From sequence record PX418213.1: a DNA stretch of 64,000 nt, one strand, 5' to 3'. Both the position numbers and the translations under genes were made by a program. The stretch comes from a phage. The notes beneath the pieces were generated by a model that was not told the DNA's origin, did no database searches, and saw only the letters and a program-made list of their open reading frames with translations. Shown here one piece after another: positions 25,211 through 55,109 of this stretch; position 1 is the stretch's first letter; each line of letters starts with the position of its first letter.

Positions 25211-25331
25211 ATTACCTCCATTAAGTCTTTTAAATTAACCTAATGTGGATGAATTTTATTATACATATATTATGTACCTTTATACAGAAAAACCCCAGAC
25301 TACTTATTCAATAGCTGGGGTTTGTTATTAA

Positions 25332-25637
25332 TTACAGATCGGGGCGTTCATCTTCGAACGCTACGAAGCCATCAAATTCATCGTTTGAAATACCACCAGT
25401 ATAGGTGGTGTCCGCAATCATCGCTTCCATTTTCCGGATCTCCGAGGTTTTCATGCCTGCTTTACTATTCTTATAATACTTGCGAGGGTTCCCACACATC
25501 CAACAAGAACAGATGCAAGGAGTAGTAGTGATAATACCTAACCGCTTAGGGCTTTCTTCATGTGGAAAGACTGTCCAATACTTCTTGCGGTTGTTCTTCA
25601 CACGTTGCCGGTGATGGCGTCTTAATGCTCGATCCAC
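25332..25637 (-). CDS. basic protein with Cys cluster
   Basis: N-terminal RRHHRQRVKNNRKKY and CICSCWMC; not a canonical CxxxCxxC radical-SAM motif. Confidence 0.5.
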   Translation of the reverse strand: MDRALRRHHRQRVKNNRKKYWTVFPHEESPKRLGIITTTPCICSCWMCGNPRKYYKNSKAGMKTSEIRKMEAMIADTTYTGGISNDEFDGFVAFEDERPDL

Positions 25638-25718: not shown

Positions 25719-26087
25719 TTACATCGCCTGAGTAAATGTACGACTAATAACGTCGTTCTGTTGTTCACGAGTCAATGCGTTAAATCGAACAGCATAGCCA
25801 GAGACACGGATAGTCAATTGAGGATATTTTTCAGGATGTTTCTGTGCATCCAAAAGCTGATCACGGCTTAACACATTGACATTTAGGTGCTGTCCACCTT
25901 CGATTTGAGGGGCGACTTCCACTTTGACTTCACGGAAGGCTTCGGGATCGAATTGTGGCGTGATACCTTCTAGATCTTCAACTAGAACTTTCTGTTTAAG
26001 TTCACCATTGTCGGAGTATAGCTGAATAATCTGATTTTCATGAACAAGGTTAATTACGCCAGATTTAAGATTTTGATATGCTTTCAT
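25719..26087 (-). CDS. grcA: autonomous glycyl radical cofactor (GrcA/YfiD-like)
   Basis: C-terminal ...[10 protein letters not shown]...[28 protein letters not shown] matches the GrcA/PFL glycyl-radical signature (RVSGY). Confidence 0.75.
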
Positions 26088-26129
26088 TAGATCTCCCCGA
26101 TGTTAGAATTTGGCTCAGCTCTTTATTCT

Positions 26130-26324
26130 TTATACTTTTCCATAGTATACGGAAACTGTCTTACCAGTTTGGTTCATGACATATGCTACTTCATCTTCTT
26201 TTAAAAAGATGGCTTGGTCTACTCCAACTATAGCCAATCTTTTATTTCTAGGATTAAAGCTTACACTTCTGCCTGTATGAATCTGTTCCCCATTCTTGGC
26301 TGACATTATTTTAATTGTTAACAT
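26130..26324 (-). CDS. hypothetical protein
   Basis: 64-aa ORF. Confidence 0.45.
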   Translation of the reverse strand: MLTIKIMSAKNGEQIHTGRSVSFNPRNKRLAIVGVDQAIFLKEDEVAYVMNQTGKTVSVYYGKV

Positions 26325-26361: not shown

Positions 26362-26437
26362 TGGTAGTTAGTAGTGGATTTGAACCACTGTAGTCACTCC
26401 GTATGAAGGAGGTGCATAACCGCTCTGCCAACTAACT
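26362..26437 (-). tRNA. tRNA, anticodon CAT (Met or Ile2)
   Basis: T-arm GGTTCAAATCC, acceptor AGTTAGT/ACTAACT, CCA encoded. Confidence 0.6.
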
Positions 26438-26533
26438 GTTATGTTTTACTAGACTAAGTAAGTATTCTTTATACTCTTTAGACCAATTAGCTTTTTTAAA
26501 CTTTCCTGGACGCATAGTCTTAATTCCTAAATT

Positions 26534-26610
26534 TGGTACTCCGGGAGGGATTTAAACCCCCGATCTCTCGGTTATCAGCCGAGTGCTTTAGATCGCTAAG
26601 CTACCGAAGC
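26534..26610 (-). tRNA. tRNA-Ile (GAT)
   Basis: acceptor stem pairs; anticodon arm CTCGG-CTGATAA-CCGAG; CCA encoded. Confidence 0.65.
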
Positions 26611-26611
26611 A

Positions 26612-26839
26612 TTAACATTTTACAGTAGAACGTTTGCCATTTCTAGGTGCACCTGGAAGTCGTGCACGTTCTGCCATTCTTCGCTTAATCTTTGAGATAT
26701 TTTCTAGTGTTTGTTTTTCAAGCTTAATACCTGAAACACTACACCACTGATTACCATCCCATGCGGTAATGATCATAACACCATTACTCATAATCTTTTC
26801 TGTGAAAGTAATTCTCATTATAGCAACTCGTCTAAGCAA
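26612..26839 (-). CDS. hypothetical protein
   Basis: 75-aa ORF abutting tRNA; uncertain. Confidence 0.3.
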   Translation of the reverse strand: MLRRVAIMRITFTEKIMSNGVMIITAWDGNQWCSVSGIKLEKQTLENISKIKRRMAERARLPGAPRNGKRSTVKC

Positions 26840-27111
26840 GAGGTATATTTAAGTTTACCATCTTTATCTACTTTAATTTCGACTTCCGCTCGTGGTACTT
26901 GACGAACTACACCATGAATCATCTTATAGCGAATGCCTTTAGCTGGTTCACGATCTTTTGGAAATACTTGCTTAACCGTTACTACCTTGAAACCCTCACG
27001 CGGTGTTAACACTACTACTTGATCACCTTCTTTGATCTTCCAAGAGCTAGGAAATTCATAGGTATAGCGTTGACCACCAGTTTGGAACACAACAGAAAGA
27101 TAACGTTTCAT
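26818..27111 (-). CDS. hypothetical protein
   Basis: 97-aa ORF downstream of promoter 27142-27170. Confidence 0.5.
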   Translation of the reverse strand: MKRYLSVVFQTGGQRYTYEFPSSWKIKEGDQVVVLTPREGFKVVTVKQVFPKDREPAKGIRYKMIHGVVRQVPRAEVEIKVDKDGKLKYTSCLDELL

Positions 27112-27141
27112 TTGGTTTCCCTCTCATTAATTTATATAAAT

Positions 27142-27170
27142 ATTATAACAATAAATAAGAGAGAAAGCAA
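27142..27170 (-). promoter_or_regulatory. T5-type strong sigma70 promoter
   Basis: TTGCTT, 17 bp, TATAAT. Confidence 0.6.
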
Positions 27171-27178
27171 ATGAATTT

Positions 27179-27346
27179 TTAATAAAGTTTAGTCACTTCA
27201 TAAACTATACTACGAGATTCTTTATTACGTTGTATTAAATTAGCATATGCTTCTTCAGCTTCATTTTTAGTATTAAAGTCTATAACGTGGGAGGTATTAG
27301 CTCTGTTTGATTGGCTATACCAGATAACTACTAGGAGTTTAAACAT
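27179..27346 (-). CDS. small hypothetical protein
   Basis: ORF 27179..27373 trimmed to internal Met with AAGGA RBS so it no longer overlaps the tRNA. Confidence 0.4.
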   Translation of the reverse strand: MFKLLVVIWYSQSNRANTSHVIDFNTKNEAEEAYANLIQRNKESRSIVYEVTKLY

Positions 27347-27360
27347 ACTAATCCTTAAAT

Positions 27361-27447
27361 TGGTGCTGGGCACAGGATTCGAACCTGCAATGGGATTACT
27401 CCTCCTGATTACAAATCAGGTGCATTCAACCATTCTGCCAACCCAGC
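27361..27447 (-). tRNA. tRNA with long extra arm, anticodon TGT (Thr-type) in arm CCTGA-TTTGTAA-TCAGG
   Basis: 87 nt; acceptor GCTGGGT/GCCCAGC; T-arm GCAGG-TTCGAAT-CCTGT; class-II-like length unusual for Thr. Confidence 0.5.
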
Positions 27448-27612
27448 AGAACCCGTTATTTCAACGGGATTTCTTTTTCAATAACAAGAGACTTGTCAGT
27501 CATAACTATCATTGCCATTTGTTGTAGAAATTCAAAGGTGAAGGCTACACGTTCTTCACCAATCTCTACTTCTACACGTTTCTTTTGTTTATCGATCTTG
27601 ACTTTTATGTTA

Positions 27613-27864
27613 TCAGCCATTAGAGAGTACAGTACTGGTAGTTGGCAATACTACAGATGAAGCAACAGTGTTTAAATGCTTTCTCCAGTCTAGGTTAAAT
27701 TGTTTTCGAAACTCTTCATAAGGTTCTTCTGGATAAAAGCTAAAACCCCCTTTCTCATCATTCAGGATAACAGATCCGTCAGTTTGTTCGTATGCTCGGT
27801 ATGTTTCTCCAATAACAATAACTCGTTTATCGGTACTTTTATTACGAAACTCAAAAACGTGCAT
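27613..27864 (-). CDS. hypothetical protein
   Basis: 83-aa ORF. Confidence 0.5.
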   Translation of the reverse strand: MHVFEFRNKSTDKRVIVIGETYRAYEQTDGSVILNDEKGGFSFYPEEPYEEFRKQFNLDWRKHLNTVASSVVLPTTSTVLSNG

Positions 27865-27880
27865 AATGTTTCCTTAAAGT

Positions 27881-27956
27881 TGGAGCGGCTAGAGGGAATC
27901 GAACCCTACTCAGCGAGGCTTGGAAGGCCTGCGACACAACCCATGTGCTTAACCGC
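27881..27956 (-). tRNA. tRNA-Gly (TCC), tentative
   Basis: acceptor GCGGTTA/TAGCCGC; loop CTTCCAA; one mismatch in anticodon stem. Confidence 0.5.
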
Positions 27957-27964
27957 TTATTATT

Positions 27965-28040
27965 TGGCTGGAGAAGGAGGAATCGAACCTACCATTAACG
28001 GAGTCAAAGGCCGTTGTGCTAACCGTTACACTACTCTCCA
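27965..28040 (-). tRNA. tRNA-Gln (TTG)
   Basis: U1-A72 acceptor (TGGAGAG/CTTCTCCA) as in bacterial tRNA-Gln; loop CTTTGAC. Confidence 0.55.
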
Positions 28041-28046
28041 ATTATT

Positions 28047-28122
28047 TGGCTGGAGTGCCTGGGATCGAACCAGGAACCTTCGGAGTCAGAGGCCGACGAT
28101 CTGCCAATTGATCTACACTCCA
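28047..28122 (-). tRNA. tRNA, anticodon CTG (Gln-type), tentative
   Basis: acceptor TGGAGTG/CACTCCA; T-arm CTGGG-TTCGATC-CCAGG; loop CTCTGAC. Confidence 0.5.
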
Positions 28123-28131
28123 AAAATGCTA

Positions 28132-28368
28132 TTAACTAGATGCTGTTTCTACTGGCTGAGACACAGCAGGCTGTTCTAACGTATCTGGTGCTGATACAGA
28201 GAAAAGAGCTTGTAATGCTGCAATATCACGCTCGTAAGTATCAATACGAGTAGTAAGAGTATCTACCATCTGTTTATGGTAGGCTAAGTTATTCTGAGAT
28301 TCATCTCGAAGAGTTTGCAGTTCTGCAAGACGTGTTAACATAATTTCACTAATTAAAGCATTACTCAT
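28132..28368 (-). CDS. coiled-coil protein
   Basis: 78-aa ORF. Confidence 0.5.
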   Translation of the reverse strand: MSNALISEIMLTRLAELQTLRDESQNNLAYHKQMVDTLTTRIDTYERDIAALQALFSVSAPDTLEQPAVSQPVETASS

Positions 28369-28558
28369 TTGTTTCTCCTAAGTTTTCCGGTTCTTCTAAA
28401 CGTTTGCCTTCATGATCTACTCGAATAACTCCGCACCCTTCGCAAATCACAACTGCACCATAACCTTCTTTGACCTCAGCTTCTGTAATCAAACCAGAAA
28501 GATCACCAGTATCTCTGCCCCACATATCAATGGAGCATTGTTTGCAGAAATCAGCCAT
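28361..28558 (-). CDS. hypothetical protein
   Basis: 65-aa ORF. Confidence 0.45.
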   Translation of the reverse strand: MADFCKQCSIDMWGRDTGDLSGLITEAEVKEGYGAVVICEGCGVIRVDHEGKRLEEPENLGETNE

Positions 28559-28583
28559 ATTTTATTTCCTATTTAAGTTAATT

Positions 28584-28660
28584 TGGGGTGGCTAGTGGAA
28601 TTCGAATCCACATAGGCCTGATTCACAATCAGGATCATTAACCAATTATGATATAGCCAC
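28584..28660 (-). tRNA. tRNA-His (GTG)
   Basis: extra 5' G typical of tRNA-His; anticodon arm CTGAT-TGTGAAT-ATCAG. Confidence 0.7.
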
Positions 28661-29029
28661 AATTGAAAACTCGCAGGGTTAGCGAAACCATCCTCAATTA
28701 GCATGTTCTAGAATACTAATCAAGTTATCTCCTATTGCACGCAGCTCAAGACGAGTACGAATTTTCAATTGTGGCGGCTCTCCGAAACTCTTCTACTCTA
28801 GCCTTAGCAGCTTACTCCCGAACGCATGTCGGGAAAGTCTTACTAAGAGTATCAAATAGCACCGTTACACTTTGAGCCATAGGTGTATCAAGAAGCAGAA
28901 GGACTTGAACCTTCACGAGATAGACCATTTATCTCAGCCGCTTTATGAGGTATGTTGCGGGGAGTGGATGTTCCCCATAAACCTTTTAGGCAGCCCCGTC
29001 TACCGATTCCGGCATACTTCAAGATTTTT
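28661..29029 (-). ncRNA. non-coding stretch with isolated T-arm-like hairpin
   Basis: GAAGG-TTCAAGT-CCTTC hairpin near 28898-28914 with no matching acceptor stem; GGGGA..TCCCC hairpin at 28958-28975. Confidence 0.3.
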
Positions 29030-29203
29030 TTATAAACCAGCAGAAGCCTCATTTAGAGCATCAACAATAGCTTCACGTTGGGTCATTCCATACCCGGTGG
29101 AATCTAGGTGTGGCAAATAAGCCATCCATCCCTTATCTGTTTCATGAAGACATGCTTTAAATTTTGTACCATCCTTCATTGTTACAGTAACTGTTTTGCT
29201 CAT
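29030..29203 (-). CDS. small hypothetical protein (57 aa)
   Basis: hand-translated MSKTVTVTMKDGTKFKACLHE...; AAGGAAA RBS. Confidence 0.4.
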   Translation of the reverse strand: MSKTVTVTMKDGTKFKACLHETDKGWMAYLPHLDSTGYGMTQREAIVDALNEASAGL

Positions 29204-29223
29204 AAGATTTCCTTATAGTTAAT

Positions 29224-29313
29224 TGGCAGAAGATAATGGAGTCGAACCATCACCGTATCGCTACAGCGGGCTGGTTTTCAAGACCAGTTACGTACCACTA
29301 CGTCCTATCTTCT
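29224..29313 (-). tRNA. tRNA-Ser (TGA)
   Basis: 90 nt with long variable arm; anticodon arm CTGGT-CTTGAAA-ACCAG. Confidence 0.7.
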
Positions 29314-29326
29314 AGTATTTATTATA

Positions 29327-29674
29327 CTAATAGTCACTCGTACTAGTGAAGTTTTCTACTTTTCCACAAATTTTACAAGTCCTACGATGGTAGTAGGTAA
29401 TTTTTACTTTAGACCAGCCATCGTGATCATTACCTAGGTTTTCTGTTACTCCCCAAGTATGAGAACACTCATTTTCAATTTGCTTAGTAAGAGCGTTATA
29501 GCGAGTATAAAACTCCTCCTGAGCAATAGCAAACTCTTTCTGTAGTTTATCACGAGCAATAATAGCACGTTCCAGATATGTTAAATCTGGCATTCCAGCT
29601 TTTTCAGCAGCATCTATAATCTTATCTTCATCTAAAGATGCTAAAAACTCTAGAGCTTTATCTTTTGCTAACAT
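29327..29674 (-). CDS. hypothetical protein with C-terminal Cys pairs
   Basis: 115-aa ORF; ...CSHTWG...RRTCKICGK. Confidence 0.5.
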   Translation of the reverse strand: MLAKDKALEFLASLDEDKIIDAAEKAGMPDLTYLERAIIARDKLQKEFAIAQEEFYTRYNALTKQIENECSHTWGVTENLGNDHDGWSKVKITYYHRRTCKICGKVENFTSTSDY

Positions 29675-29693
29675 TATTATTACCTCAAGTGTT

Positions 29694-29784
29694 TGGCGGA
29701 AGAGGAGAGATTTGAACTCTCAAGCCGTTTTACCAGTCAGCCACTTTCCAAGCGGTTTTCGTCGCCAATTCGATTTGCTCTTCC
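29694..29784 (-). tRNA. tRNA-Ser (GGA), tentative
   Basis: 91 nt; acceptor GGAAGAG/CTCTTCC; T-arm GAGAG-TTCAAAT-CTCTC; long variable arm. Confidence 0.55.
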
Positions 29785-29804
29785 AATAATAAGATGATGC
29801 CTCT

Positions 29805-29893
29805 ATCACACCAGGCTGTTATGCCTCGCTGGGATTCGAACCCATTAAAACAGCTCAACCGAGATAGTAGGTTTAATTTACTCTGACCATCAA
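29805..29893 (-). ncRNA. degenerate tRNA-like element
   Basis: T-loop GGGTTCGAATCCC at 29831-29843 but no complementary acceptor strand or encoded CCA. Confidence 0.3.
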
Positions 29894-29896
29894 ATT

Positions 29897-29973
29897 TGGT
29901 GCGTGACAAGGGATTCGAACCCTCAAAACCCGACTTCTAAGGACGGTATGTATGCCAATTCCATCAATCACGC
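29897..29973 (-). tRNA. atypical tRNA, anticodon TAG (Leu codon) but class-I length
   Basis: 77 nt; acceptor GCGTGAT/GTCACGC; D-loop GAATTGG (Leu-like); loop CTTAGAA; no long variable arm. Confidence 0.45.
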
Positions 29974-29978
29974 GTATT

Positions 29979-30057
29979 TGGTGGAGAATAACGGAATCGA
30001 ACCGTTCTGATGTCCTCGGTGCAAGCGAGGTGTCCACTCCATGCAGACCCATTCCCC
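29979..30057 (-). tRNA. tRNA-Ala (TGC)
   Basis: G3:U70 pair in acceptor (GGGGAAT/ATTCTCC); anticodon arm CCTCG-CTTGCAC-CGAGG. Confidence 0.7.
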
Positions 30058-30295
30058 AAATTCTTTAGTTTACTAAGGCTATTAGCTCGGCGCAACTACA
30101 GCACCTTCGCTTCGAGCGGAAGGAACTGCGTCATCTCGCAAACCCAATACACTATTCAGTTGCCGCTGAATCTAGTGGACTAATCTAGAACTTCTCCCGA
30201 ATCGTAGGGATCGTGCTTTTTGGCAGCCAGTCCTAGGTCGAGCTAATACCTTAGTGAACTATGATGAGGATTTCTCCTCATCAATTTATATAAAT
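30058..30295 (-). ncRNA. structured leader / candidate ncRNA at 5' end of tRNA transcript
   Basis: no ORF; long-range complement AGGCTATTAGCTCG (30076-30089) with CGAGCTAATACCT (30239-30251); local hairpins. Confidence 0.35.
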
Positions 30296-30324
30296 ATTAT
30301 AACAAGAAATTAAGCATCAAGCAA
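30296..30324 (-). promoter_or_regulatory. T5-type promoter driving tRNA cluster segment
   Basis: TTGCTT, 17 bp, TATAAT; overlaps 3' end of CDS 30317-30685. Confidence 0.55.
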
Positions 30325-30685
30325 GTACATTTTTAGCGATTTCTTGCAGTTCCTTTACATCACGAACGTAAAGGTAATCAGAGCTTCCAGAGTGCATACT
30401 TTGCATAACTACACCTTCATCTGGTGCATTATCCTTCAGAGTAATTCCTAACCAGAACTCGGCAAAACTAGGTGTTATCTCACCTTGACTTGCCTTGAAT
30501 ACATCATATTCTGTAAGTTCTTGACCAGTAGATAATCCCAAATAGACAGAACTAAGATCTATCTCTTTATGAGACTCATAAAACTCCGTTAGATCTTTCT
30601 CCATATCCCAACCATGCTGTAACGCGAACTCCATTGCCACATGACTGAAATAACCTTGAATCTTGCTTGATAATTGCATTTGCAA
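30317..30685 (-). CDS. hypothetical protein
   Basis: 122-aa ORF starting with TTG. Confidence 0.5.
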   Translation of the reverse strand: MQMQLSSKIQGYFSHVAMEFALQHGWDMEKDLTEFYESHKEIDLSSVYLGLSTGQELTEYDVFKASQGEITPSFAEFWLGITLKDNAPDEGVVMQSMHSGSSDYLYVRDVKELQEIAKNVLA

Positions 30686-30704
30686 TTCCTTATTTTGAGT
30701 TAAT

Positions 30705-30778
30705 TGGTACTCGGTGATAGAATCGAACTATCGCAATCGCCGTGTAAAGACGGGGTTCTCCCATTAAACTAACCGAGC
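30705..30778 (-). tRNA. tRNA-Val (TAC), tentative
   Basis: acceptor GCTCGGT/ACCGAGT; T-arm GATAG-TTCGATT-CTATC; loop TTTACAC. Confidence 0.5.
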
Positions 30779-30782
30779 AATT

Positions 30783-30861
30783 TGGTAGATCGCCTGGGAC
30801 TCGAACCCAGAACCTTCCGATTAAAAGTCGGATGCTACTAAACCTATTGAGCTAGCGATCT
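30783..30861 (-). tRNA. tRNA-Lys (TTT)
   Basis: anticodon arm TCCGA-CTTTTAA-TCGGA; acceptor AGATCGC/GCGATCT. Confidence 0.7.
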
Positions 30862-30862
30862 A

Positions 30863-31030
30863 TTAGTAACCATTGTATACTTCTTTAATAGAGTGAATTT
30901 TCAAGTAAGGGTGATTAGTATTAAACTCTGCCATTACTTCATCCCAATTTTTACCGTAATGAGCGAGTAAGGATTTTGATGTATTCTTACCTAAACGTTT
31001 GTCACTTACTACTAATCGAAATACTTTCAT
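30863..31030 (-). CDS. small hypothetical protein (55 aa)
   Basis: hand-translated MKVFRLVVSDKRLGKN...; AGAGGA RBS. Confidence 0.4.
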   Translation of the reverse strand: MKVFRLVVSDKRLGKNTSKSLLAHYGKNWDEVMAEFNTNHPYLKIHSIKEVYNGY

Positions 31031-31050
31031 TTCGAAATCCTCTATTAAAA

Positions 31051-31128
31051 TGGAAGCGGGTGCAGGAATCGAACCTACCTCTTTCTAGCTTATGAGACTA
31101 GTGATCTCTACCAGAGATCTAACCCGCA
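31051..31128 (-). tRNA. tRNA, anticodon CAT (Met/fMet/Ile2)
   Basis: anticodon arm CTAGT-CTCATAA-GCTAG; T-arm GTAGG-TTCGATT-CCTGC; irregular acceptor end. Confidence 0.55.
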
Positions 31129-31134
31129 ATTGTT

Positions 31135-31212
31135 TGGTCTCCGTGGGAGGATTTGAACCCCCGACCCTATCGCCCCAAACGAAACGCTCTGGCCAAACTG
31201 AGCTACACGGAG
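31135..31212 (-). tRNA. tRNA-Pro (TGG)
   Basis: acceptor CTCCGTG/CACGGAG; D-arm GCTCAGTTTGGCCAGAGC; loop TTTGGGG. Confidence 0.6.
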
Positions 31213-31216
31213 AATA

Positions 31217-31375
31217 TTATTTCTTCAACCACAACAAAGATAAGCCCAACATACTAAAGCCGCTAACTAATCCGATACATTTTTCTTCTATAGTAAAAGT
31301 ATCTAGATTAAATGCTGTTATAGCTATTGGCATACACCATAATGCCATAAAAACTTGAGCTATCTTGTGTTTCAT
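31217..31375 (-). CDS. small membrane protein (52 aa)
   Basis: hand-translated MKHKIAQVFMALWCMPIAITAF...; GAAGGAAAG RBS; promoter directly upstream. Confidence 0.4.
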   Translation of the reverse strand: MKHKIAQVFMALWCMPIAITAFNLDTFTIEEKCIGLVSGFSMLGLSLLWLKK

Positions 31376-31407
31376 TTTGCTTTCCTTCTCTTCACTTTAT
31401 AAGATAT

Positions 31408-31436
31408 ATTATACAGAGAATTAAGCAGAATAGCAA
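31408..31436 (-). promoter_or_regulatory. T5-type strong sigma70 promoter
   Basis: TTGCTA, 17 bp, TATAAT. Confidence 0.6.
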
Positions 31437-31439
31437 ATG

Positions 31440-31828
31440 AATTTTTAATAAATTTACTTATTGTGTAGGCCACCTGGAGGCTACCAACCCCACGGCTGAC
31501 AAAGAAGTTTGCGAGACCTCTCTTAAATGCCAGAATAGACCCGCCGATCTATCGGAACCTACATAATAAGTAAACTTTATAGTGTCATTCTAGACAGGAC
31601 TCGAACCTGTTATCACTTGTGCGGACTTACGAGAACCATTCTTTCACTCGAATCGAACGAGCTTCTGCCCTAGCCAAGCTGGTTTCCCCATCAACCACGC
31701 TAGAATGTTTGATTGTTTTCAGTGCAAGAGTCCGAGTCTTGGACACGACCGCTTCGCAAGTACATAGGCAGCTTATCATGAGTCAGCACTTCCGAATTGC
31801 TAGCTCCGTGTTCTGCACTGAAATTTTG
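31440..31828 (-). ncRNA. structured non-coding region with tRNA-like elements
   Basis: no ORF; D-arm-like TGGTT-GATGGGGA-AACCA; two T-arm-like hairpins (CTCG-TTCGATT-CGAG and ACAGG-TTCGAGT-CCTGT); ATTCTAG/CTAGAAT complement about 120 nt apart; separate stem TTCAGTGCA/TGCACTGAA (31719-31727 with 31812-31820). Confidence 0.35.
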
Positions 31829-32176: not shown

Positions 32177-32202
32177 AGCATATTTCTCGTGCTAGTTTAA
32201 TT

Positions 32203-32278: not shown

Positions 32279-32279
32279 A

Positions 32280-32438: not shown

Positions 32439-32455
32439 AGCTAACCTACCTTATT

Positions 32456-32532: not shown

Positions 32533-32541
32533 ATAATTCAT

Positions 32542-33497: not shown

Positions 33498-33499
33498 TT

Positions 33500-33574: not shown

Positions 33575-33580
33575 AAATTT

Positions 33581-47652: not shown

Positions 47653-48185
47653 TAATAAGTAACCAATTCCTGTACAAATCGCAGGCTGTTATCACTGTTT
47701 GCGCCAGTTGCGTAAACTAAACGAGTAGATTCATAGTTGTAATCTAGAATCGTATTATCCAGATGTACATCTGCCTCTAGTTTTTGATTACTAAAGATTG
47801 TGGATACGAAAGCACTTTCAATATGTCCATGAATATACATTTCGTACAGTAATGTTGCACCACCTAAAACCACTGTCTGTTGATCTTTTAAGAATGTAGG
47901 TAATGTATCTCCAATCTTTGAAATTGGGGTATAGATACCATGCTTAATATCATCAGGCAGAGGACGATCCGCACGAATAAAGAGGTCAGATTCTCCAATC
48001 ATACGTTGCCGAACAACTTCTGGAAGTGCTAAATAAGTACCCGCACCAATGATGATGTTATCTGGATTCAACACGTCTAGTTGAGAATAGAAAGCATCTA
48101 GTTCTTCTTTGAAGGAACCCCATGGGAGTTTACCTCGGAGGCCGAACTCCCCATTCGGCCCAACTGCATATATTGCTGTAATCAT
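47652..48185 (-). CDS. frd: dihydrofolate reductase
   Basis: 177 aa; N-terminal [25 protein letters not shown] motif. Confidence 0.75.
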
Positions 48186-49327
48186 AAGAAATCTCCAAAT
48201 TCATTACCCAGATCTTTCAAAGTATCCGTAGAGGTCTCAGTTACCTGACCTACACGGTAGGCTGCACCAATCTGGATTTCTTGTGGAGCAGGCTGTAAAG
48301 AGGTGGTATCCAACCAGTTCATGATCCACGGAATAGGGTTTTTGGTGATTACTGGTAAATGACTAGGCCATTCTACACCAATGTGCATAAACGCATTACG
48401 CCCTACAAAATATAGGTACTCTTCTAGAAGTTCTGCATTCAAGCCAATCAGACTACGACCTTTGAAAATGAAGTGGCCCCATTCAATTTCAGTTTTCAGA
48501 GTTTTCAGGAGCTGTGCTGGTGCTTTAGTCACTGCTTCATCTACCAGATCTTTGTCAAATTGCTGAAACATAATCTGGATGATTGCTTTAGACATCTGAG
48601 TGTGTAGAGCTTCATCTTTAGCAATTAATTGTAGGTTTTTAGCAATACCTTGTAGAATATCGTTCTCTGCTAATGCAAAGGTACATGCAAAGGATGCGTA
48701 AAACTGCATTGCTTCCAGACCATAGATCGCAAAATAAGCGTCTAATAGTTTAGCCTGAGTTTCACGTTTAACTTCAGGGAACTCAGTTTCTGGATATGTA
48801 TTGTCTCCACGATGATCGCGTACTGCGATGAAATACTGACCTAACTGGTACAGTTCATCGAATAGTTCAACAGAATCAGCGATGCGTGCGAATGCTTCTT
48901 GGTTTTTGGTTACAGAATCAATAAATTCTGCTGGATCAGTTAGCACATTACGAATAATATTGCTATAAGCACGACTATGCAGATCTTCGAAGTAGCTCCA
49001 CTGCTTGAGCATACCTTCCAATTCTGGACGACTTACAAGCGGCATAATAGCTGCTTCAGGAGCACGACTGATAAAGGAATCAGTTTGAGTCTGCCATGCT
49101 AAGTTCAGGAGTGTAATTTCCTGAATTTCACGTGGGAGATTAGGCCATTGTTTCTTATCTGCTTCCAGACTGATTTCAGTTTCAGTCCAAAATTGAGAGC
49201 GTTGCAGAAGTGCCAGGCGTTCTAGTTCTGGATGTGCTACACGTACATAATCTGCGATACCGAGAGAATCTCCCAGGAAAAGGTCAGCGTTAGTATGATC
49301 CCAATTCAGGTTTAGTAAAGTAGTCAT
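48182..49327 (-). CDS. nrdB: ribonucleotide reductase class Ia small subunit
   Basis: 381 aa with di-iron/tyrosyl-radical motif pattern. Confidence 0.8.
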   Translation of the reverse strand: MTTLLNLNWDHTNADLFLGDSLGIADYVRVAHPELERLALLQRSQFWTETEISLEADKKQWPNLPREIQEITLLNLAWQTQTDSFISRAPEAAIMPLVSRPELEGMLKQWSYFEDLHSRAYSNIIRNVLTDPAEFIDSVTKNQEAFARIADSVELFDELYQLGQYFIAVRDHRGDNTYPETEFPEVKRETQAKLLDAYFAIYGLEAMQFYASFACTFALAENDILQGIAKNLQLIAKDEALHTQMSKAIIQIMFQQFDKDLVDEAVTKAPAQLLKTLKTEIEWGHFIFKGRSLIGLNAELLEEYLYFVGRNAFMHIGVEWPSHLPVITKNPIPWIMNWLDTTSLQPAPQEIQIGAAYRVGQVTETSTDTLKDLGNEFGDFL

Positions 49328-49358
49328 TGATTTTCCTCTTTCTCACTATTTCAGGAAT

Positions 49359-49387
49359 ATTATAGCAAATCTGGTAGCGATTAGCAA
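49359..49387 (-). promoter_or_regulatory. T5-type promoter for nrdB-DHFR-thyA operon
   Basis: TTGCTA, 17 bp, TATAAT upstream of nrdB. Confidence 0.6.
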
Positions 49388-49400
49388 GTAAAATTTCAAA

Positions 49401-49425
49401 GAAAAAGGAGACCCGAAGATCTCCT
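49401..49425 (-). terminator. rho-independent terminator after nrdA
   Basis: GGAGA...TCTCC hairpin with U-run on minus strand. Confidence 0.55.
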
Positions 49426-49433
49426 TGTTTTTA

Positions 49434-51764
49434 TTAAATAGTACAACCACCGGATGCACAACCGGCTGCTTCTTCTCCAGCACCTCCACCATTTGCGGTA
49501 TTGAAGTTAGCATAATACCAAGTTTTCCACCCATACTTAACAGCAGTCATGAAATCACGAACTACTACTGGGCCAGGAATGATTTCATTCTCAAACTTGG
49601 TGTAGTCATAGTACATATTCGTACTGATAGACTGACTGAAGAATTTCTGCATAGTTGCTACCCATTTGATCCACTCGATACGATCTACATCATAAGCCAG
49701 TTTATAGCTCATTAATGTTTCCCAATCGGTTGCACCTGGAGCAATTGCAATTACTTTATTTACTGCACTACCTTTAATAGATACAATCTTACGAGGCGGT
49801 TCGATAGAGTTAGTAACTCCTAGCAGAACAGAAGAACTTTCTCCCGGCATCTGAGCAGTCAGAACAGAGTTACGCATACCATATTTCAGAATATCTGCAC
49901 GTAGAGACTCCCAATCCATTTCTAGACCTACGGATACCAGTTCATCAACAGTTTTCTTGTACGTATCGATTACCAGAATTCCTTTAGATGGTTTAGTACG
50001 ATCAAACCACTCACATGCACCCTGTTCCTTAGCCAGGCGTACAGAGGCTTTATGCAGGAAGTAAGACAGTTTTTCAGCCTCACGGTGAATCCAGTTACGG
50101 GCTTCAATACCTTCGTAAGCCAGACCTTCTGCTGCCATTGCACCTGCTGCATTCATCAGGCCAATACCAACATTACGACGTTTCTTAGCCGTATATTCCA
50201 TAGTTGGGAACGGATAATCCTGAATTTCAATAATTGTATCAACGAATTTCAGGAGGATGTAGCAAGTTTTTTCCCACTCAGCCAGAGACTCCATGCGCCC
50301 AAGTACAACACCACCTAAGTTACACAGAGATACTTCACCAATATCCTCCGGCTTCATTTGATCAAGCTGCTCTTTTGTCTTGTACAGCTCTGTAATGTGA
50401 TGGAACGGGCGCGTAGGCTGAGTAATTTCAACACAAAGGTTTGTCATACGGATCGGATCAAGGAAGTTACCGTGACGATTAGATTCCCCGATGTGATGAG
50501 CATACATACGTCCTGTTTCCATTCGGATACGTAGCCAAGTATCTAGGATTTCTTTTGCAGAGACTTTAGGAGCTGCTGGAACTGTTTTTCCTTCGTGGTC
50601 GATCTTTGTAAGAGATGCCACACGTTTCTCCGCTGCCACGTAGATTTCTTCAAAATTAGCCTCGTCATCACTATAAAACGCTTCATGAACTTCTGGAGCA
50701 TAGAAGTATGACATTAGCGTAATATCTTCGTTTTTAAGATAACGTTTTAACAAAAGATTGTTAAAGCTCAGAGAATAATCCATCTTATCGATTTTATTCT
50801 CATCTGTAGCACGTTGTTGCTTAACCTGCATCAATTGAATGATTTCAGGATCGAAGTATGGATAAGACACTGTAGCAGAACCACCACGAGTTTGCTGAGT
50901 ATTGGCCTTTACTGAGCGGTCAATGTGTCGATAATATGGCAGTTTTCCGGAATGCGGGAATGCCCCATTTCGCACCGGATCAGCAATTGATCGGCTTTCA
51001 AGATGATACCCGATTCCCGCTCTGGCTGCGACCATTTTGAAGACGATGTGCTCGGCGGTGTCGATTGAATCCAACGTGTCAGTGGAATCCACGAGGCAGC
51101 AACTAGCAAATCCACGGTCACTAGAGCGCAGACCAACCAGTGGCGGCGTAGGAACGTTGATTTTGTGGAGTGACATTGCGTTGTAGAGATCGATTGCATC
51201 TAGAATTGTCCAGTTAGGTTGAGATAACATAGCCATTGCCATACCCATGTAGGCAAACTGCGGGGTTTCATAAATTTCACCAGTGGCTATATTACGACGG
51301 GAATACTTATCAAAGAACTGCTTCAGCCCACCACTAGTAAAAAGACGGTCACGATCATGGTCGATAACCTGATTCAGAGCTTCAAATTGCTCATCGGTAA
51401 TCCATGCACTCATGTCTTCCCATGCACCTACGCTAACCATGTGGTCATGGAAGAAGCGTAGAGAAGGTGGTTCGAAGGAATCATAAAGGCGTTTACGCAT
51501 TTGCGCAAGACGTAATTCCTTTGCTGGCACATCATATGCTGGATTATCTTTAATAAGACTTTCAGCAGCTTTAATTAATGCATCCATCAGAGTGTCGGAA
51601 TCTACAACCCCTTTAGGCAGAGTTTTTTGAGCAGCCATAGTAATGGCTGACCAACTTACATCAACTGTTTTGCAACCATACTCTGCCCAACCATTGATTT
51701 TTTCAGGAGCAAAGTCTTCTACAGTACCGTCACGTTTAATTACTTTTTCAATGCGATGGCTCAT
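49434..51764 (-). CDS. nrdA: ribonucleotide reductase class Ia large subunit
   Basis: start moved to ATG 51764 (MSHRIEKVIKRDG, ATP-cone) behind AAGGAAAG RBS; terminator downstream. Confidence 0.8.
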   Translation of the reverse strand: MSHRIEKVIKRDGTVEDFAPEKINGWAEYGCKTVDVSWSAITMAAQKTLPKGVVDSDTLMDALIKAAESLIKDNPAYDVPAKELRLAQMRKRLYDSFEPPSLRFFHDHMVSVGAWEDMSAWITDEQFEALNQVIDHDRDRLFTSGGLKQFFDKYSRRNIATGEIYETPQFAYMGMAMAMLSQPNWTILDAIDLYNAMSLHKINVPTPPLVGLRSSDRGFASCCLVDSTDTLDSIDTAEHIVFKMVAARAGIGYHLESRSIADPVRNGAFPHSGKLPYYRHIDRSVKANTQQTRGGSATVSYPYFDPEIIQLMQVKQQRATDENKIDKMDYSLSFNNLLLKRYLKNEDITLMSYFYAPEVHEAFYSDDEANFEEIYVAAEKRVASLTKIDHEGKTVPAAPKVSAKEILDTWLRIRMETGRMYAHHIGESNRHGNFLDPIRMTNLCVEITQPTRPFHHITELYKTKEQLDQMKPEDIGEVSLCNLGGVVLGRMESLAEWEKTCYILLKFVDTIIEIQDYPFPTMEYTAKKRRNVGIGLMNAAGAMAAEGLAYEGIEARNWIHREAEKLSYFLHKASVRLAKEQGACEWFDRTKPSKGILVIDTYKKTVDELVSVGLEMDWESLRADILKYGMRNSVLTAQMPGESSSVLLGVTNSIEPPRKIVSIKGSAVNKVIAIAPGATDWETLMSYKLAYDVDRIEWIKWVATMQKFFSQSISTNMYYDYTKFENEIIPGPVVVRDFMTAVKYGWKTWYYANFNTANGGGAGEEAAGCASGGCTI

Positions 51765-51906
51765 TTGGCTTTCCTTTTTATAGTTATCAGGATTTAAGGA
51801 ATATTCTACTTTATTATCGGTCATTAGGCAAATAAAATTTTCTGATAGAAAAGGCCCGAGTATTTTCATACCCAGGCCCTGTATATTACCAGTCTAGCTT
51901 TTTAGC

Positions 51907-53234: not shown

Positions 53235-55109
53235 ATGAATCGCAATGAAGAACTAAAGTATAAAGAAATGCAGGCGTTAATTAGAAACTGCAAAGAGATT
53301 ATCGAAGGGTCAGCAGATGAAGAGCTGCTGTTTAATAATGCCAATAAACCCTCAGAACGTTTCCCTACACAAAGGGATATGCTTGCAGGTGAATTGAGTA
53401 AGTATCTAATTCTAGAAGAAATGCCAATTCAGATTCGAAATGCTCATATGATTGGGGATATTCATTTCCATGATGCCGATTATGCTGCATTAGGCATGAC
53501 TAACTGTTGTCTGGTAGCTCTGGAAGATATGTTGAAGAATGGTATGAAGGTTGGTAATGCTGAAATTAGCACTCCAAACTCTATCACTACTGCGGCGGCT
53601 ATTACTGCTCAGATTATCACTCAGGTTAGCTCCCATCAGTATGGTGGTACTTCTGTAGATCGCCTTGATGAAGTATTAGCCCCTTATGTTCGTAAATCCT
53701 ATGATAAAAATCATGCGTTTGCAAAACGTTGGACTAAGGATGAAGCCAAAGCATCCGTAATGGCTACGGAGATGACTGAAAAAGAAGTCTATGACGCTTG
53801 TCAGGGTTTAGAATATGAAATCAATACCATGTTCAACTCTAATGGTCAGAGTCCATTTATTACCTTTGGTTTTGGTCTAGGAACTTCTTGGGAAGCACGT
53901 CTAGTACAGAAAGCAATACTGAAAGTACGCATGGATGGTTTAGGTATCAATAAACGTACAGCTATCTTCCCGAAACTGGTATTTGTACTTCGTGATGGTG
54001 TTAACATGAAACCAGGAGATGTTAATTATGACATCAAGAAGTTAGCTATGAAATGTACTGCTGAACGTATGTATCCAGATTATATTAGCTATGACAAGGT
54101 TGTAGAAGTTACTGGAGACTATAAAGTTTCTATGGGCTGCCGTTCATTCCTAGCTGCTACAGAAGATGGTGAAACTGCCGGTCGTAATAACTTAGGTGTT
54201 GTTTCTGTAAACTTGCCTAGAATTGCTATCGAAGCTGAAGGAAATATTGACCTATTCTTTGATTTGCTTGAGCTACGTGTGGATACAGCATTAAAAGCGT
54301 TGGAGTGGAGAGTTGATCGCTTAAAATACATTCAAGCTAAAGCTGCACCCATCCTCTATATGTCAGGAGCCTTTGGGTTACGCTTGGGGCCTGATGAATA
54401 TGTATTCGATCATTTCTATAACCGTGCTTCTGTATCTCTAGGGTATATTGGCTGCCATGAAATGCTACAGTTCATGTTTGGCAAAGATGTAGACACAATG
54501 TCCGAGACCTGCATCAAGTTTGTTCAGCGTGTATTGCAGTACATGCGAGATAGAGTCGATCAGAAGAAGGAAGAGACTAAGTTAGGTTATAGCCTGTATG
54601 CTACACCGTCAGAGTCCCTATGCGATCGTTTTTGTCGTCTAGACCGTGAGTATTTCCCGGAGCATGAAGATATTCTGTCCAAAGGATACTACACTAACTC
54701 TCACCACCTTGATGTGGAACGTAAAGTTGCTCCCAATGTGAAATTTGATTATGAATCTAACTTTACGCCTATTGCCTCTGGTGGGTGTATTTCCTATGTA
54801 GAACTACCGGATATGAAACGATTCCCAGATGCGCTGGAATGGGTTATTAATTATGCTGCTAGTAAGGTTCATTACTTCGGTATTAATACTCCAGTGGATT
54901 CTTGTGGTAAATGTGGATTCTTAGGTGAAACAATAGCATCCGAAGATGGATTTAAGTGCCCTATCTGTGGTAATCATGACCCCGAAACTCTTGAAGTAAC
55001 TCGTCGAGTTTGTGGGTATCTTGGAAATCCGGGTGCTCGTCCATTTAACCCTGGCAAACAGCACGAGGTTATGGGCAGAGTGAAGCATCAGGATATTCGA
55101 GCTAAATAA
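53235..55109 (+). CDS. nrdD: anaerobic ribonucleoside-triphosphate reductase (class III)
   Basis: 624 aa; C-terminal Zn ribbon (CGKCG...CPICG) and glycyl-radical motif RVCGYLG. Confidence 0.85.
   Translation: MNRNEELKYKEMQALIRNCKEIIEGSADEELLFNNANKPSERFPTQRDMLAGELSKYLILEEMPIQIRNAHMIGDIHFHDADYAALGMTNCCLVALEDMLKNGMKVGNAEISTPNSITTAAAITAQIITQVSSHQYGGTSVDRLDEVLAPYVRKSYDKNHAFAKRWTKDEAKASVMATEMTEKEVYDACQGLEYEINTMFNSNGQSPFITFGFGLGTSWEARLVQKAILKVRMDGLGINKRTAIFPKLVFVLRDGVNMKPGDVNYDIKKLAMKCTAERMYPDYISYDKVVEVTGDYKVSMGCRSFLAATEDGETAGRNNLGVVSVNLPRIAIEAEGNIDLFFDLLELRVDTALKALEWRVDRLKYIQAKAAPILYMSGAFGLRLGPDEYVFDHFYNRASVSLGYIGCHEMLQFMFGKDVDTMSETCIKFVQRVLQYMRDRVDQKKEETKLGYSLYATPSESLCDRFCRLDREYFPEHEDILSKGYYTNSHHLDVERKVAPNVKFDYESNFTPIASGGCISYVELPDMKRFPDALEWVINYAASKVHYFGINTPVDSCGKCGFLGETIASEDGFKCPICGNHDPETLEVTRRVCGYLGNPGARPFNPGKQHEVMGRVKHQDIRAK

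What the first reader, a model, noticed from the sequence alone, without database searches (positions are those of the whole stretch)
25719..26087. Phage-encoded GrcA-like glycyl-radical cofactor in the same genome as class III RNR NrdD
The 122-aa product ends with the GrcA/PFL glycyl-radical signature (...[16 protein letters not shown]...). In E. coli, GrcA is a spare-part protein for oxygen-damaged pyruvate formate-lyase. Here it co-occurs with a phage NrdD (53235-55109, motif RVCGYLG) while no NrdG-like activase with a CxxxCxxC motif is seen in this window. The phage GrcA may rescue host PFL, or it may be a radical-domain donor for the phage NrdD.
Basis: partly seen in the sequence, partly recalled or inferred. 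Interest (0 to 1): 0.7.

Follow-up and report, generated by a model that had tools for sequence, protein, structure and literature searches.

The report
T5-type phage copy of GrcA
This is a real but already catalogued small phage gene, the T5.056 ortholog and a relative of T4 Y06I and bacterial GrcA, which most likely repairs the host's oxygen-damaged pyruvate formate-lyase rather than the phage's own anaerobic ribonucleotide reductase.

Summary
Window 25719-26087 (minus strand) encodes a 122-aa protein with an invariant RVSG97YAV glycyl-radical loop (Pfam PF01228, E=3.7e-18).

- **What the window is:** a T5-like phage (Tequintavirus). The gene is the ortholog of T5.056 (116/122 aa identical). 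Identical proteins are already annotated in GenBank as "autonomous glycyl radical cofactor" or "pyruvate formate-lyase".
- **Homology:** it matches T4 vs.6/Y06I over its full length (52% identity). Published work showed that Y06I rescues O2-cleaved PFL. The last 62 aa are 79% identical to E. coli PflB and 77% to GrcA.
- **No fit to NrdD:** there is no detectable similarity to the NrdD C-terminus, and the protein has no cysteines or zinc ribbon.
- **Selection:** both halves are under purifying selection (dN/dS about 0.0-0.3).
- **No activase:** no NrdG or PflA homolog exists in the window or in a complete close relative. The lack of nrdG in T5-type phages was already published.

Best reading: a PFL spare part that host PflA activates. 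It keeps acetyl-CoA and formate production going during microaerobic infection, and formate is the reductant of the phage's formate-type NrdD. The "radical donor for NrdD" idea has no sequence support.

One suggestive extra: in several other phage lineages the homolog sits inside or next to nrdD-nrdG or nrdAB clusters.

Known kind; low interest.

The parts
25719..26087 (-). CDS of the GrcA-like protein (122 aa plus stop); ortholog of T5.056
   Evidence: ORF list. Pfam PF01228, E=3.7e-18. NCBIfam GrcA, GrcA3, GrcA2 and PflB C-terminus. phrog_1209 over the full length, E=8e-48. 90% nt and 116/122 aa identity to T5.056.
25722..25922 (-). C-terminal glycyl-radical domain, residues 56-122. It corresponds to YfiD 61-127 and PFL 693-759, and contains RVSG97YAV (Gly codon 25799-25797).
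   Evidence: PDB alignments to 6OWR and 1H16. Last 62 aa: 79% identity to PflB and 77% to GrcA, with only three conservative changes (D76, A104, A121) at positions where GrcA and PflB agree. AF2 model matches 6OWR and 2PFL. dN/dS 0-0.13.
25923..26087 (-). Divergent N-terminal half, residues 1-55 (MKAYQ... start shared with T4 vs.6)
   Evidence: Not matched by the GrcA HMM before residue 50. HHalign of the first 46 aa: T5-type vs T4-type is weak (prob 24%, E=8e-4), T5-type vs bacterial gives nothing, T4-type vs bacterial GrcA gives prob 90%. dN/dS 0.05-0.33, so under purifying selection. AF2 predicts a small beta sheet, as it also does for bacterial GrcA.
26093..26098 (-). Shine-Dalgarno GGGGAG, 5 nt upstream of the ATG
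   Evidence: Read directly from the sequence.
27116..27182 (-). Homolog of the promoter annotated as P11 in T5; likely start of the transcription unit that contains the gene
   Evidence: 97% identical to the T5 feature annotated as promoter P11. Promoter function is taken from the T5 record, not tested here.
25288..25320 (-). Rho-independent terminator closing the unit (CCCCAG...CTGGGGTTTTT)
   Evidence: 100% identical to the terminator annotated in T5 at 27219-27251.
25332..25637 (-). Co-transcribed downstream ORF (101 aa, ortholog of T5.055), basic, with CxCxCxxC. Not an activase.
   Evidence: No Pfam hit. phrog_4499, unknown function.
26130..26324 (-). Upstream 64-aa ORF in the same unit. 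At the corresponding position T5 has tRNA-Met directly followed by T5.056.
   Evidence: phrog_3909, unknown function.
26362..26610 (-). tRNA-Met and tRNA-Ile, just upstream in the same leftward unit
   Evidence: ARAGORN. Same arrangement as in T5.
53235..55109 (+). Phage class III ribonucleotide reductase NrdD (624 aa, no ATP-cone). Formate-type active site; G594 in RVCGYLG. Functionally linked only by inference, through formate.
   Evidence: PF13597, E=4e-172; NF006732, 843 bits. 53% identity to E. coli NrdD, with C91, M300-G-C302, the four zinc Cys and G594 conserved. GRNNLGV has Asn at the position where the thioredoxin-type enzymes have a third Cys.
48182..51869 (-). Class Ia RNR genes nrdB (48182-49327) and nrdA (49434-51869). 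Context only.
   Evidence: Pfam Ribonuc_red_sm for nrdB. nrdA and nrdB are assigned from the fp01 annotation at the colinear positions.

Best explanation

**Proposed mechanism.** Every step is inferred by homology; none was tested for this protein.
1. During infection of an enterobacterium in low oxygen, host pyruvate formate-lyase is cleaved by O2 at its radical glycine (G734) and inactivated.
2. The phage protein binds the cleaved enzyme. Its C-terminal domain (residues 56-122) takes the place of the lost beta-strand, glycine loop and C-terminal helix.
3. The host radical-SAM activase PflA abstracts a hydrogen from G97 in RVSGYAV. The phage encodes no activase of its own.
4. The glycyl radical passes to PFL Cys419, and pyruvate + CoA -> acetyl-CoA + formate resumes.

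**Benefit to the phage.** ATP production through acetyl-CoA continues. Formate supply also continues, and formate is the reductant of the phage's own formate-type NrdD.

**Why the phage carries its own copy.** This is an inference from textbook T5 biology: T5 degrades host DNA and shuts off host expression, so the stress-induced host grcA could not be induced after infection.
For: **Homology and fit to PFL**
- Full-length homology to the biochemically validated T4 Y06I: 52% identity over 122 aa, E=1e-37. The T4 function is described in PMC8683613.
- Full-length match to phrog_1209.
- The C-terminal 62 aa are 79% identical to E. coli PflB and 77% to GrcA, while third codon positions are only 45-50% identical. 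This indicates long-standing purifying selection for a PFL-shaped domain.
- Only three conservative substitutions fall at positions where GrcA and PflB agree.
- RVSGYAV and G97 are invariant across 29 homologs.
- The AF2 model's C-terminal half superposes on YfiD 6OWR and PFL 2PFL.

**The gene is functional**
- dN/dS is well below 1 in both halves among Tequintavirus and Epseptimavirus orthologs.
- A good Shine-Dalgarno precedes the ATG, and the gene sits in a transcription unit conserved with T5.

**Dependence on host activases**
- No phage NrdG or PflA.

**The formate link**
- The window NrdD has the formate-type active site.
- In other phage lineages the homolog lies in or beside nrd clusters while keeping the PFL-type loop.
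Against: - No experiment exists for the T5-type protein.
- Its first ~46 residues have diverged beyond profile-profile recognition from bacterial GrcA, and the protein scores below NCBIfam's GrcA cutoff (121 vs 170 bits). In YfiD that half matters for binding cleaved PFL (PMC8683613), so the binding mode or partner could differ.
- In this window the gene is 27 kb from nrdD, on the other strand, and in a different transcription unit. The formate link therefore has no local support here.
- Synteny with nrdAB in two lineages may simply reflect clustering of nucleotide-metabolism genes.
Confidence: 0.75

Rival explanations
1. Spare radical domain or radical donor for the phage NrdD. The protein would replace the O2-cleaved C-terminus of NrdD, or let host PflA activate NrdD in a phage that lacks NrdG.
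For: - T5-type phages carry nrdD without nrdG.
- In jumbo Salmonella and Klebsiella phages, an Aeromonas phage and two metagenomic contigs, the homolog lies within or beside nrdD-nrdG. In two cases it overlaps nrdG by 4 nt.
- PMC8683613 speculates that some GrcA-like proteins might repair other glycyl-radical enzymes.
Against: - No detectable similarity to the NrdD C-terminus (E>20).
- An alignment shows NrdD has a 22-residue 4-Cys zinc-ribbon insertion and a 5-residue insertion after GY that the protein lacks; the protein has zero Cys.
- The domain is kept about 80% identical to PFL, not to NrdD, even in the nrdD-adjacent copies.
- The window NrdD glycine-loop segment is 25/32 identical to E. 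coli NrdD, against 18/32 for T4, which brings its own NrdG. This fits activation by host NrdG.
- The synteny is equally well explained by the formate dependence of NrdD.
Confidence: 0.05
2. Spare part or partner for a different host glycyl-radical enzyme (TdcE, or another PFL-family enzyme), or for a different host protein recognised by the divergent N-terminal half.
For: - The N-terminal 46 aa are lineage-specific yet under purifying selection.
- Some GenBank records label the protein '2-ketobutyrate formate-lyase'.
- Weaker matches exist to other PFL-family C-termini.
Against: - Similarity to PflB (97 bits) far exceeds that to YbiW, PflD, CutC and others (50 bits or less).
- AF2 predicts the same kind of small beta N-domain for the phage protein and for bacterial GrcA.
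- The T4 homolog acts on PFL.
Confidence: 0.1
3. Decoy that titrates PflA or blocks PFL, shutting down host fermentation.
For: Phages often encode mimics that inhibit host enzymes. In vitro, YfiD is activated only in complex with cleaved PFL, so a mimic could in principle compete.
Against: - The radical glycine and the whole loop are invariant. A pure inhibitor would not need them.
- T4 Y06I restores PFL activity rather than inhibiting it.
- The phage's own formate-type NrdD would suffer from loss of PFL.
Confidence: 0.05
4. Decaying fragment of a captured pflB or grcA gene with no function.
For: The gene is often annotated as 'pyruvate formate-lyase', although it is only 122 aa long.
Against: - Intact ORF with a Shine-Dalgarno.
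- About 430 T5-type records carry a copy at least 90% identical in protein.
- dN/dS is 0-0.33, with dS up to 0.8.
Confidence: 0.02

Closest known systems
Bacteriophage T4 Y06I (gene vs.6), autonomous glycyl radical cofactor
   Same: - Stand-alone phage protein of similar size (120 vs 122 aa).
- Alignable over the full length (52% identity), including the MKAYQ N-terminus.
- Identical RVSGYAVRF loop, and presumably the same PHROG family.
- Carried by a virulent enterobacterial phage that also carries NrdD.
- Shown in vitro to be activated by PFL-AE and to restore O2-cleaved PFL.
   Different: - The last 186 nt of T4 vs.6 are 95.7% nt-identical to E. coli grcA, a sign of recent exchange with the host. 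The window copy is an old, independent lineage (about 70% nt identity).
- The N-terminal 46 aa are only marginally similar (HHalign prob 24%).
- T4 also encodes NrdG; the T5-type phage does not.
E. coli GrcA (YfiD), PDB 6OWR
   Same: - C-terminal domain 77% identical.
- Same length class, same loop, and the same predicted fold of the C-terminal half.
- AF2 predicts a similar small beta N-domain for both.
   Different: - The window protein scores below the NCBIfam GrcA cutoff (121 vs 170 bits), and only residues 50-122 align.
- The N-terminal half is not recognisably similar.
- It is phage-borne and sits in an early-gene/tRNA transcription unit.
T5.056 of bacteriophage T5 and its orthologs in Tequintavirus and Epseptimavirus
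   Same: It is the same gene: 116/122 aa identical, same position next to tRNA-Met/tRNA-Ile, same promoter and terminator. Proteins 100% identical to the window's occur in phages Th1, fp01 and HASG4.
   Different: Only the annotation wording differs between records: 'putative acetyltransferase-related protein', 'pyruvate formate-lyase', 'autonomous glycyl radical cofactor', 'ribonucleotide reductase subunit' or 'hypothetical'. None has been characterised experimentally as far as the held literature shows.
C-terminal domain of pyruvate formate-lyase PflB (residues 693-759)
   Same: 79% identity over 62 aa, including the beta-strand, the glycine loop and the C-terminal helix.
   Different: The protein lacks the roughly 690-residue barrel and the catalytic Cys418/Cys419, so it cannot be a formate-lyase on its own. 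The GenBank label 'pyruvate formate-lyase' is misleading.

Membership tests
Autonomous glycyl radical cofactor (GrcA/YfiD/Y06I; TIGR04365, IPR011140) | Stand-alone protein of about 120-130 aa consisting of an N-terminal half plus a C-terminal glycyl-radical domain | tested here: met
   122-aa ORF. PF01228 at residues 62-103. GrcA HMM aligned at residues 50-122.
Autonomous glycyl radical cofactor (GrcA/YfiD/Y06I; TIGR04365, IPR011140) | Conserved radical glycine in the PFL-type loop RVSGYAV | tested here: met
   G97 in [11 protein letters not shown]. Invariant in the 29-sequence alignment.
Autonomous glycyl radical cofactor (GrcA/YfiD/Y06I; TIGR04365, IPR011140) | C-terminal domain nearly identical to the C-terminus of PFL, so that it can replace it | tested here: met
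   49/62 (79%) identical to E. coli PflB. Only three conservative changes at positions where GrcA and PflB agree. The model matches 2PFL and 6OWR.
Autonomous glycyl radical cofactor (GrcA/YfiD/Y06I; TIGR04365, IPR011140) | Whole-protein score above NCBIfam's curated equivalog cutoff | tested here: not met
   TIGR04365: 121 bits vs cutoff 170. GrcA3: 117 vs 158. GrcA2: 91 vs 145. The shortfall comes from the divergent N-terminal half. The models are built for bacterial proteins.
Autonomous glycyl radical cofactor (GrcA/YfiD/Y06I; TIGR04365, IPR011140) | N-terminal half homologous to that of GrcA (in YfiD this half is important for binding cleaved PFL) | tested here: inconclusive
   HHalign: T5-type vs bacterial gives nothing; T5-type vs T4-type gives prob 24%; T4-type vs bacterial gives prob 90%. 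AF2 predicts similar beta-rich N-domains for both.
Autonomous glycyl radical cofactor (GrcA/YfiD/Y06I; TIGR04365, IPR011140) | Full-length homology to an experimentally validated member | tested here: met
   T4 vs.6/Y06I: 52% identity over 100% of the length, E=1e-37. phrog_1209 positions 1-121 of 121.
Autonomous glycyl radical cofactor (GrcA/YfiD/Y06I; TIGR04365, IPR011140) | Radical installed by PFL activase (PflA), and activity restored to O2-cleaved PFL | not testable with these tools
   Biochemical property. Shown only for YfiD and Y06I.
NrdD C-terminal glycyl-radical domain (needed for the 'NrdD spare part' reading) | Four-Cys zinc ribbon immediately before the glycine loop | tested here: not met
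   The protein has zero Cys. In the alignment the 22-residue ribbon of NrdD is a gap in the phage protein.
NrdD C-terminal glycyl-radical domain (needed for the 'NrdD spare part' reading) | NrdD-type loop RRVCGYLGxP, and overall similarity to the NrdD C-terminus comparable to GrcA vs PFL | tested here: not met
   The loop is [16 protein letters not shown] against the window NrdD and E. coli NrdD gives E=23 and E=30.
Pyruvate formate-lyase / 2-ketobutyrate formate-lyase (the label in many GenBank records) | Barrel of about 760 aa with catalytic Cys418/Cys419 | tested here: not met
   122 aa, no Cys. Only PflB residues 699-760 are matched.
Phage-encoded glycyl-radical activase (NrdG/PflA radical-SAM) | CxxxCxxC protein homologous to NrdG or PflA in the phage genome | tested here: not met
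   Nothing in the window or in complete fp01: tblastn E>=2.1, and the only motif hit is an unrelated 101-aa ORF. Consistent with PMC3653736. The part of this phage's own genome outside the window could not be read.

The most novel reading that the evidence does not exclude
The phage GrcA-like protein acts directly on the phage class III reductase. For example, it could be a PflA-activatable glycyl-radical carrier that lets an NrdG-less T5-type phage activate or re-activate NrdD. That would make it the first spare-part protein for a glycyl-radical enzyme other than PFL. The only support is the recurrent nrdD-grcA-nrdG gene order in other phage lineages and the lack of a phage NrdG here. A milder version, a dedicated 'keep formate flowing for NrdD' accessory of a phage anaerobic dNTP module, is much more likely (roughly 0.3-0.4) but less novel.
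Probability: 0.04. Interest if true: 0.85.

Novelty: already known. Interest (0 to 1): 0.22.

Why it matters
As it stands, this is a correct re-identification of a known gene family. T4 Y06I was characterised in 2001, T5.056 carries the glycine-radical InterPro domain in the T5 reference record, and many current records already call the protein GrcA.

Its modest value lies in three points:
- It shows that large virulent enterobacterial phages carry a repair part for a host oxygen-sensitive fermentation enzyme.
- About a third of the listed GenBank records mislabel the protein as 'pyruvate formate-lyase', 'acetyltransferase' or 'ribonucleotide reductase subunit'.
- The gene's repeated placement inside phage nrdD-nrdG clusters suggests a testable link between PFL repair and formate-dependent anaerobic dNTP synthesis during infection in the gut.

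Tried and rejected
- **+ strand translation of the given coordinates:** full of stops; the gene is on the minus strand.
- **Search for a phage activase:** a CxxxCxxC scan of all six frames, plus tblastn with E. coli NrdG, E. coli PflA, Aeromonas-phage NrdG and T4 NrdG, against the window and the whole fp01 genome. Nothing found. The single motif hit (CICSCWMC, ORF 25332-25637) has no Pfam match and is too short and too basic for a radical-SAM enzyme.
- **Direct comparison with the NrdD C-terminus:** no similarity beyond RVxGY...FN.
- **Literature on the T5-type protein:** searches for 'T5-like' + formate-lyase, Tequintavirus + formate, and GrcA + phage + auxiliary metabolic gave no paper on the T5-type protein.
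- **An ordered N-terminal domain as a phage-specific feature:** AF2 predicts one. I rejected it as a distinguishing feature because the control model of bacterial GrcA gives the same kind of confident beta N-domain, although NMR finds that half disordered in free YfiD.
- **Generic promoter/terminator scan:** uninformative, with counts equal to shuffled expectation. I used homology to T5's annotated features instead.
- **Assigning the C-terminal domain to a GrcA or a PflB origin:** diagnostic positions are mixed, and the nearest relatives are other phage copies (82-85% identity).

Full report
**1. The observation**

The coordinates 25719-26087 delimit an ATG-started ORF of 122 aa on the minus strand. 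The plus-strand translation is full of stops. A GGGGAG Shine-Dalgarno lies 5 nt upstream of the ATG.

The product is [122 protein letters not shown]. The quoted signature is residues 88-103, the radical glycine is G97, and 19 residues follow it, as in PFL and GrcA.

The match is far beyond chance:
- Pfam Gly_radical: E=3.7e-18.
- NCBIfam: GrcA 121 bits, GrcA3 117, GrcA2 91, PflB C-terminus 86. No NrdD model is hit.
- PDB: YfiD/GrcA 6OWR E=1.4e-30, and PFL E=5e-27.

**2. What the window is**

The region is 96-98% identical to many T5-like phages. The whole window is colinear at 89-98% identity with Escherichia phage fp01, a Tequintavirus of the Demerecviridae.

The gene is the ortholog of T5.056 (116/122 aa identical). 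The T5 RefSeq record annotates T5.056 as 'putative acetyltransferase-related protein, match to IPR001150'.

By homology to features annotated in T5, the gene lies in a leftward transcription unit, in this order:
1. Promoter P11 homolog (window 27182-27116, 97% identical to T5).
2. ORF 26818-27111.
3. tRNA-Ile.
4. tRNA-Met.
5. ORF 26130-26324.
6. The GrcA-like gene.
7. ORF 25332-25637.
8. A rho-independent terminator (25320-25288, 100% identical to T5).

Proteins 100% identical to the window's are present in phages Th1, fp01 and HASG4. GenBank labels vary: 'pyruvate formate-lyase', '2-ketobutyrate formate-lyase', 'acetyltransferase-related', 'glycyl radical cofactor', 'autonomous glycyl radical cofactor', 'ribonucleotide reductase subunit' and 'hypothetical'.

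**3. Anatomy**

*C-terminal half.* Residues 56-122 correspond to YfiD 61-127 and PFL 693-759. According to PMC8683613, this is the structured domain that carries the radical and inserts into PFL.
- The last 62 aa are 79% identical to E. coli PflB, 77% to E. coli GrcA and 77% to T4 vs.6.
- The window protein differs at only three positions where GrcA and PflB agree, and all three changes are conservative: D76, A104, A121.
- Nucleotide identity to grcA and pflB is only 70-73%, with 45-50% at third codon positions. The protein similarity is therefore maintained by selection, not by recent capture.
- The nearest C-terminal relatives are other phage copies (82-85%).

*N-terminal half.* This half is different.
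- The GrcA HMM aligns only from residue 50.
- Profile-profile comparison of the first ~46 residues links the T4/jumbo-phage type to bacterial GrcA (prob 90%, E=1.7e-6).
- It links the T5 type only weakly to the T4 type (prob 24%) and not at all to bacterial GrcA.
- Even so, the whole protein matches phrog_1209 end to end (E=8e-48) and aligns over its full length with T4 vs.6 (52% identity).

*Selection.* Among seven Tequintavirus and Epseptimavirus orthologs, dN/dS is 0.05-0.33 in the N-half and 0-0.13 in the C-half, with dS up to 0.8. Both halves are functional.

*Structure models.* AlphaFold2 (pLDDT 74) gives a C-terminal half that matches 6OWR and 2PFL, and a small four-stranded beta N-domain. 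A control model of bacterial GrcA gives the same kind of N-domain. This is not a phage peculiarity, and it conflicts with the NMR finding of disorder in free YfiD.

**4. The NrdD question**

The protein shows no detectable similarity to the window NrdD or to E. coli NrdD (E=23 and 30). A five-way alignment shows the shared ancestry of the two domain types (RVxGY...FN...V..R). It also shows a 22-residue four-Cys zinc ribbon and a five-residue insertion that are specific to NrdD. The phage protein has no cysteine. It is therefore built to fit PFL, not NrdD.

The window NrdD lacks the ATP-cone. It keeps C91, M300-G-C302, the four zinc cysteines and G594, and is 53% identical to E. coli NrdD. It shares GRNNLGV with the E. 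coli enzyme, with Asn at the position where thioredoxin-type enzymes carry a third Cys. That is the criterion PMC11226230 uses for formate-dependent enzymes.

Its 32-residue glycine-loop segment is 25/32 identical to E. coli NrdD. T4 NrdD, which comes with its own NrdG, is 18/32 identical. This fits activation by host NrdG.

**5. No phage activase**

No ORF of at least 50 aa in the window carries CxxxCxxC, except an unrelated 101-aa basic protein. tblastn with four activase queries finds nothing in the window or in the complete fp01 genome.

Across the phage collection, NrdD is found in 2924 records, NrdG in 2273 and the GrcA-like protein in 1586. About 390 records hold an NrdD at least 90% identical to the window's, and about 430 hold a GrcA-like protein at least 90% identical. 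No T5-type record appeared in the NrdG sample.

Dwivedi et al. 2013 already noted that many phages carry nrdD with nrdAB but no nrdG, and they name T5, SPC35 and EPS7 for the phoH gene lying between the two RNR classes.

**6. Mechanism**

By homology with YfiD and T4 Y06I (and the mechanistic model), the proposed steps are:
1. O2 cleaves host PFL at G734.
2. The phage protein binds the cleaved enzyme, and its C-terminal domain replaces the lost elements.
3. Host PflA installs the radical on G97.
4. The radical passes to PFL Cys419 and catalysis resumes.

What is shown here is the sequence and structure fit to PFL, the selection, the absence of a phage activase and the formate-type NrdD.

What is inferred is every biochemical step for this particular protein, the use of host PflA and NrdG, and the benefit to the phage. 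That benefit would be ATP through acetyl-CoA, and formate as the NrdD reductant. It rests on Mulliez et al. 1995 as cited in PMC11226230 and on the known shut-off of host expression by T5.

**7. A context signal worth recording**

Outside the T4-like and T5-like groups, the homolog is repeatedly placed with RNR genes:

| Source | Gene order |
|---|---|
| Aeromonas phage AsFcp_4 | nrdD-nrdG-vs.6-nrdC-nrdH |
| Klebsiella jumbo phage Muenster | nrdD-grcA-x-nrdG |
| 350-kb phage genome MK268344 | nrdD-grcA-nrdG |
| Metagenomic contig | split nrdD-x-grcA-nrdG |
| 330-kb contig | nrdD...nrdG...grcA |
| Vibrio phage D479 | nrdA-nrdB-grcA |
| 73-kb contig | nrdBA next to grcA |

In all of these the loop remains the PFL type. 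I read this as a metabolic link, PFL repair sustaining formate for NrdD, or as general clustering of nucleotide-metabolism genes. I do not read it as evidence that the protein acts on NrdD. It does keep that idea from being excluded outright.

In this window the two genes are 27 kb apart, on opposite strands.

**8. Verdict**

- Identification as a GrcA-like protein is correct.
- The PFL-rescue reading is well supported by homology (confidence about 0.75).
- The NrdD-donor reading is not supported (about 0.05).
- The feature is already known. T4 Y06I is characterised, T5.056 and its orthologs are annotated, and the lack of nrdG is published.
- Interest is low. The one modest, testable angle is the link between PFL repair and anaerobic dNTP synthesis.

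Noticed in passing
L001 5558-5920 (T4 vs.6) vs L004 1067-1450 (E. coli grcA): The last 186 nt of T4 vs.6 are 95.7% identical to E. coli K-12 grcA, with 95% identity at third codon positions. The N-terminal half is unrelated at that level. This looks like a recent recombination or gene conversion between T4 and the host gene. The T5-type copy shows no such trace (about 70% nt identity).
   Followed up: partly
L002, L009, L011, L013, L015, L017, L018: GrcA-like genes of several other phage lineages lie inside or beside nrdD-nrdG or nrdA-nrdB clusters. In two cases they overlap nrdG by 4 nt. All keep the PFL-type RVSGYAVRF loop. No statistics were possible with the tools available.
   Followed up: partly
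window 25332-25637 (-): A 101-aa basic protein (T5.055 ortholog) is co-transcribed directly downstream of the GrcA-like gene. It carries TTTPCICSCWMCGNPRK, a CxCxCxxC cluster and the only CxxxCxxC in the window. It has no Pfam match and falls in phrog_4499, of unknown function.
   Followed up: partly
window 26130-26324 (-): A 64-aa ORF (phrog_3909) sits between tRNA-Met and the GrcA-like gene. In T5 the tRNA-Met gene is immediately followed by T5.056.
   Followed up: no
window 26362-39075 (-): A cluster of 24 tRNA genes, all on the minus strand, begins right upstream of the gene. This is the typical T5 tRNA region.
   Followed up: no
window 53235-55109 (+): The phage NrdD lacks the N-terminal ATP-cone (about 85 residues) of E. 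coli NrdD. It would therefore escape dATP inhibition mediated by that domain.
   Followed up: no
window 52130-52891 (-), 55971-56789 (+), 57124-57630 (+): A PhoH-like ATPase lies between nrdA and nrdD. A Sir2-family protein and a HAD domain of the 'Swiss Army Knife RNA repair' type lie downstream of nrdD.
   Followed up: no
protein P0107: A protein cluster of 900 member sequences has an E. coli-type GrcA body but a tail identical to PflB (LTKEQQQDVITRTFTQSM). It could reflect grcA/pflB gene conversion or an assembly chimera.
   Followed up: no
models m4f8b966c4a28 and mff36049d606d: AlphaFold2 predicts a confident (pLDDT about 85) small beta-sheet for the N-terminal half of both the phage protein and bacterial GrcA. 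NMR of free YfiD reports residues 1-60 as disordered. The prediction may reflect a fold adopted on binding.
   Followed up: partly
phage records MG065692.1 and MG065659.1: Two records named 'Campylobacter phage' C13 and C5 carry, respectively, a T5-type GrcA-like protein 96.7% identical to the window's and an enterobacterial-phage-type NrdG. The records have no annotation, and their host labels may be wrong.
   Followed up: no
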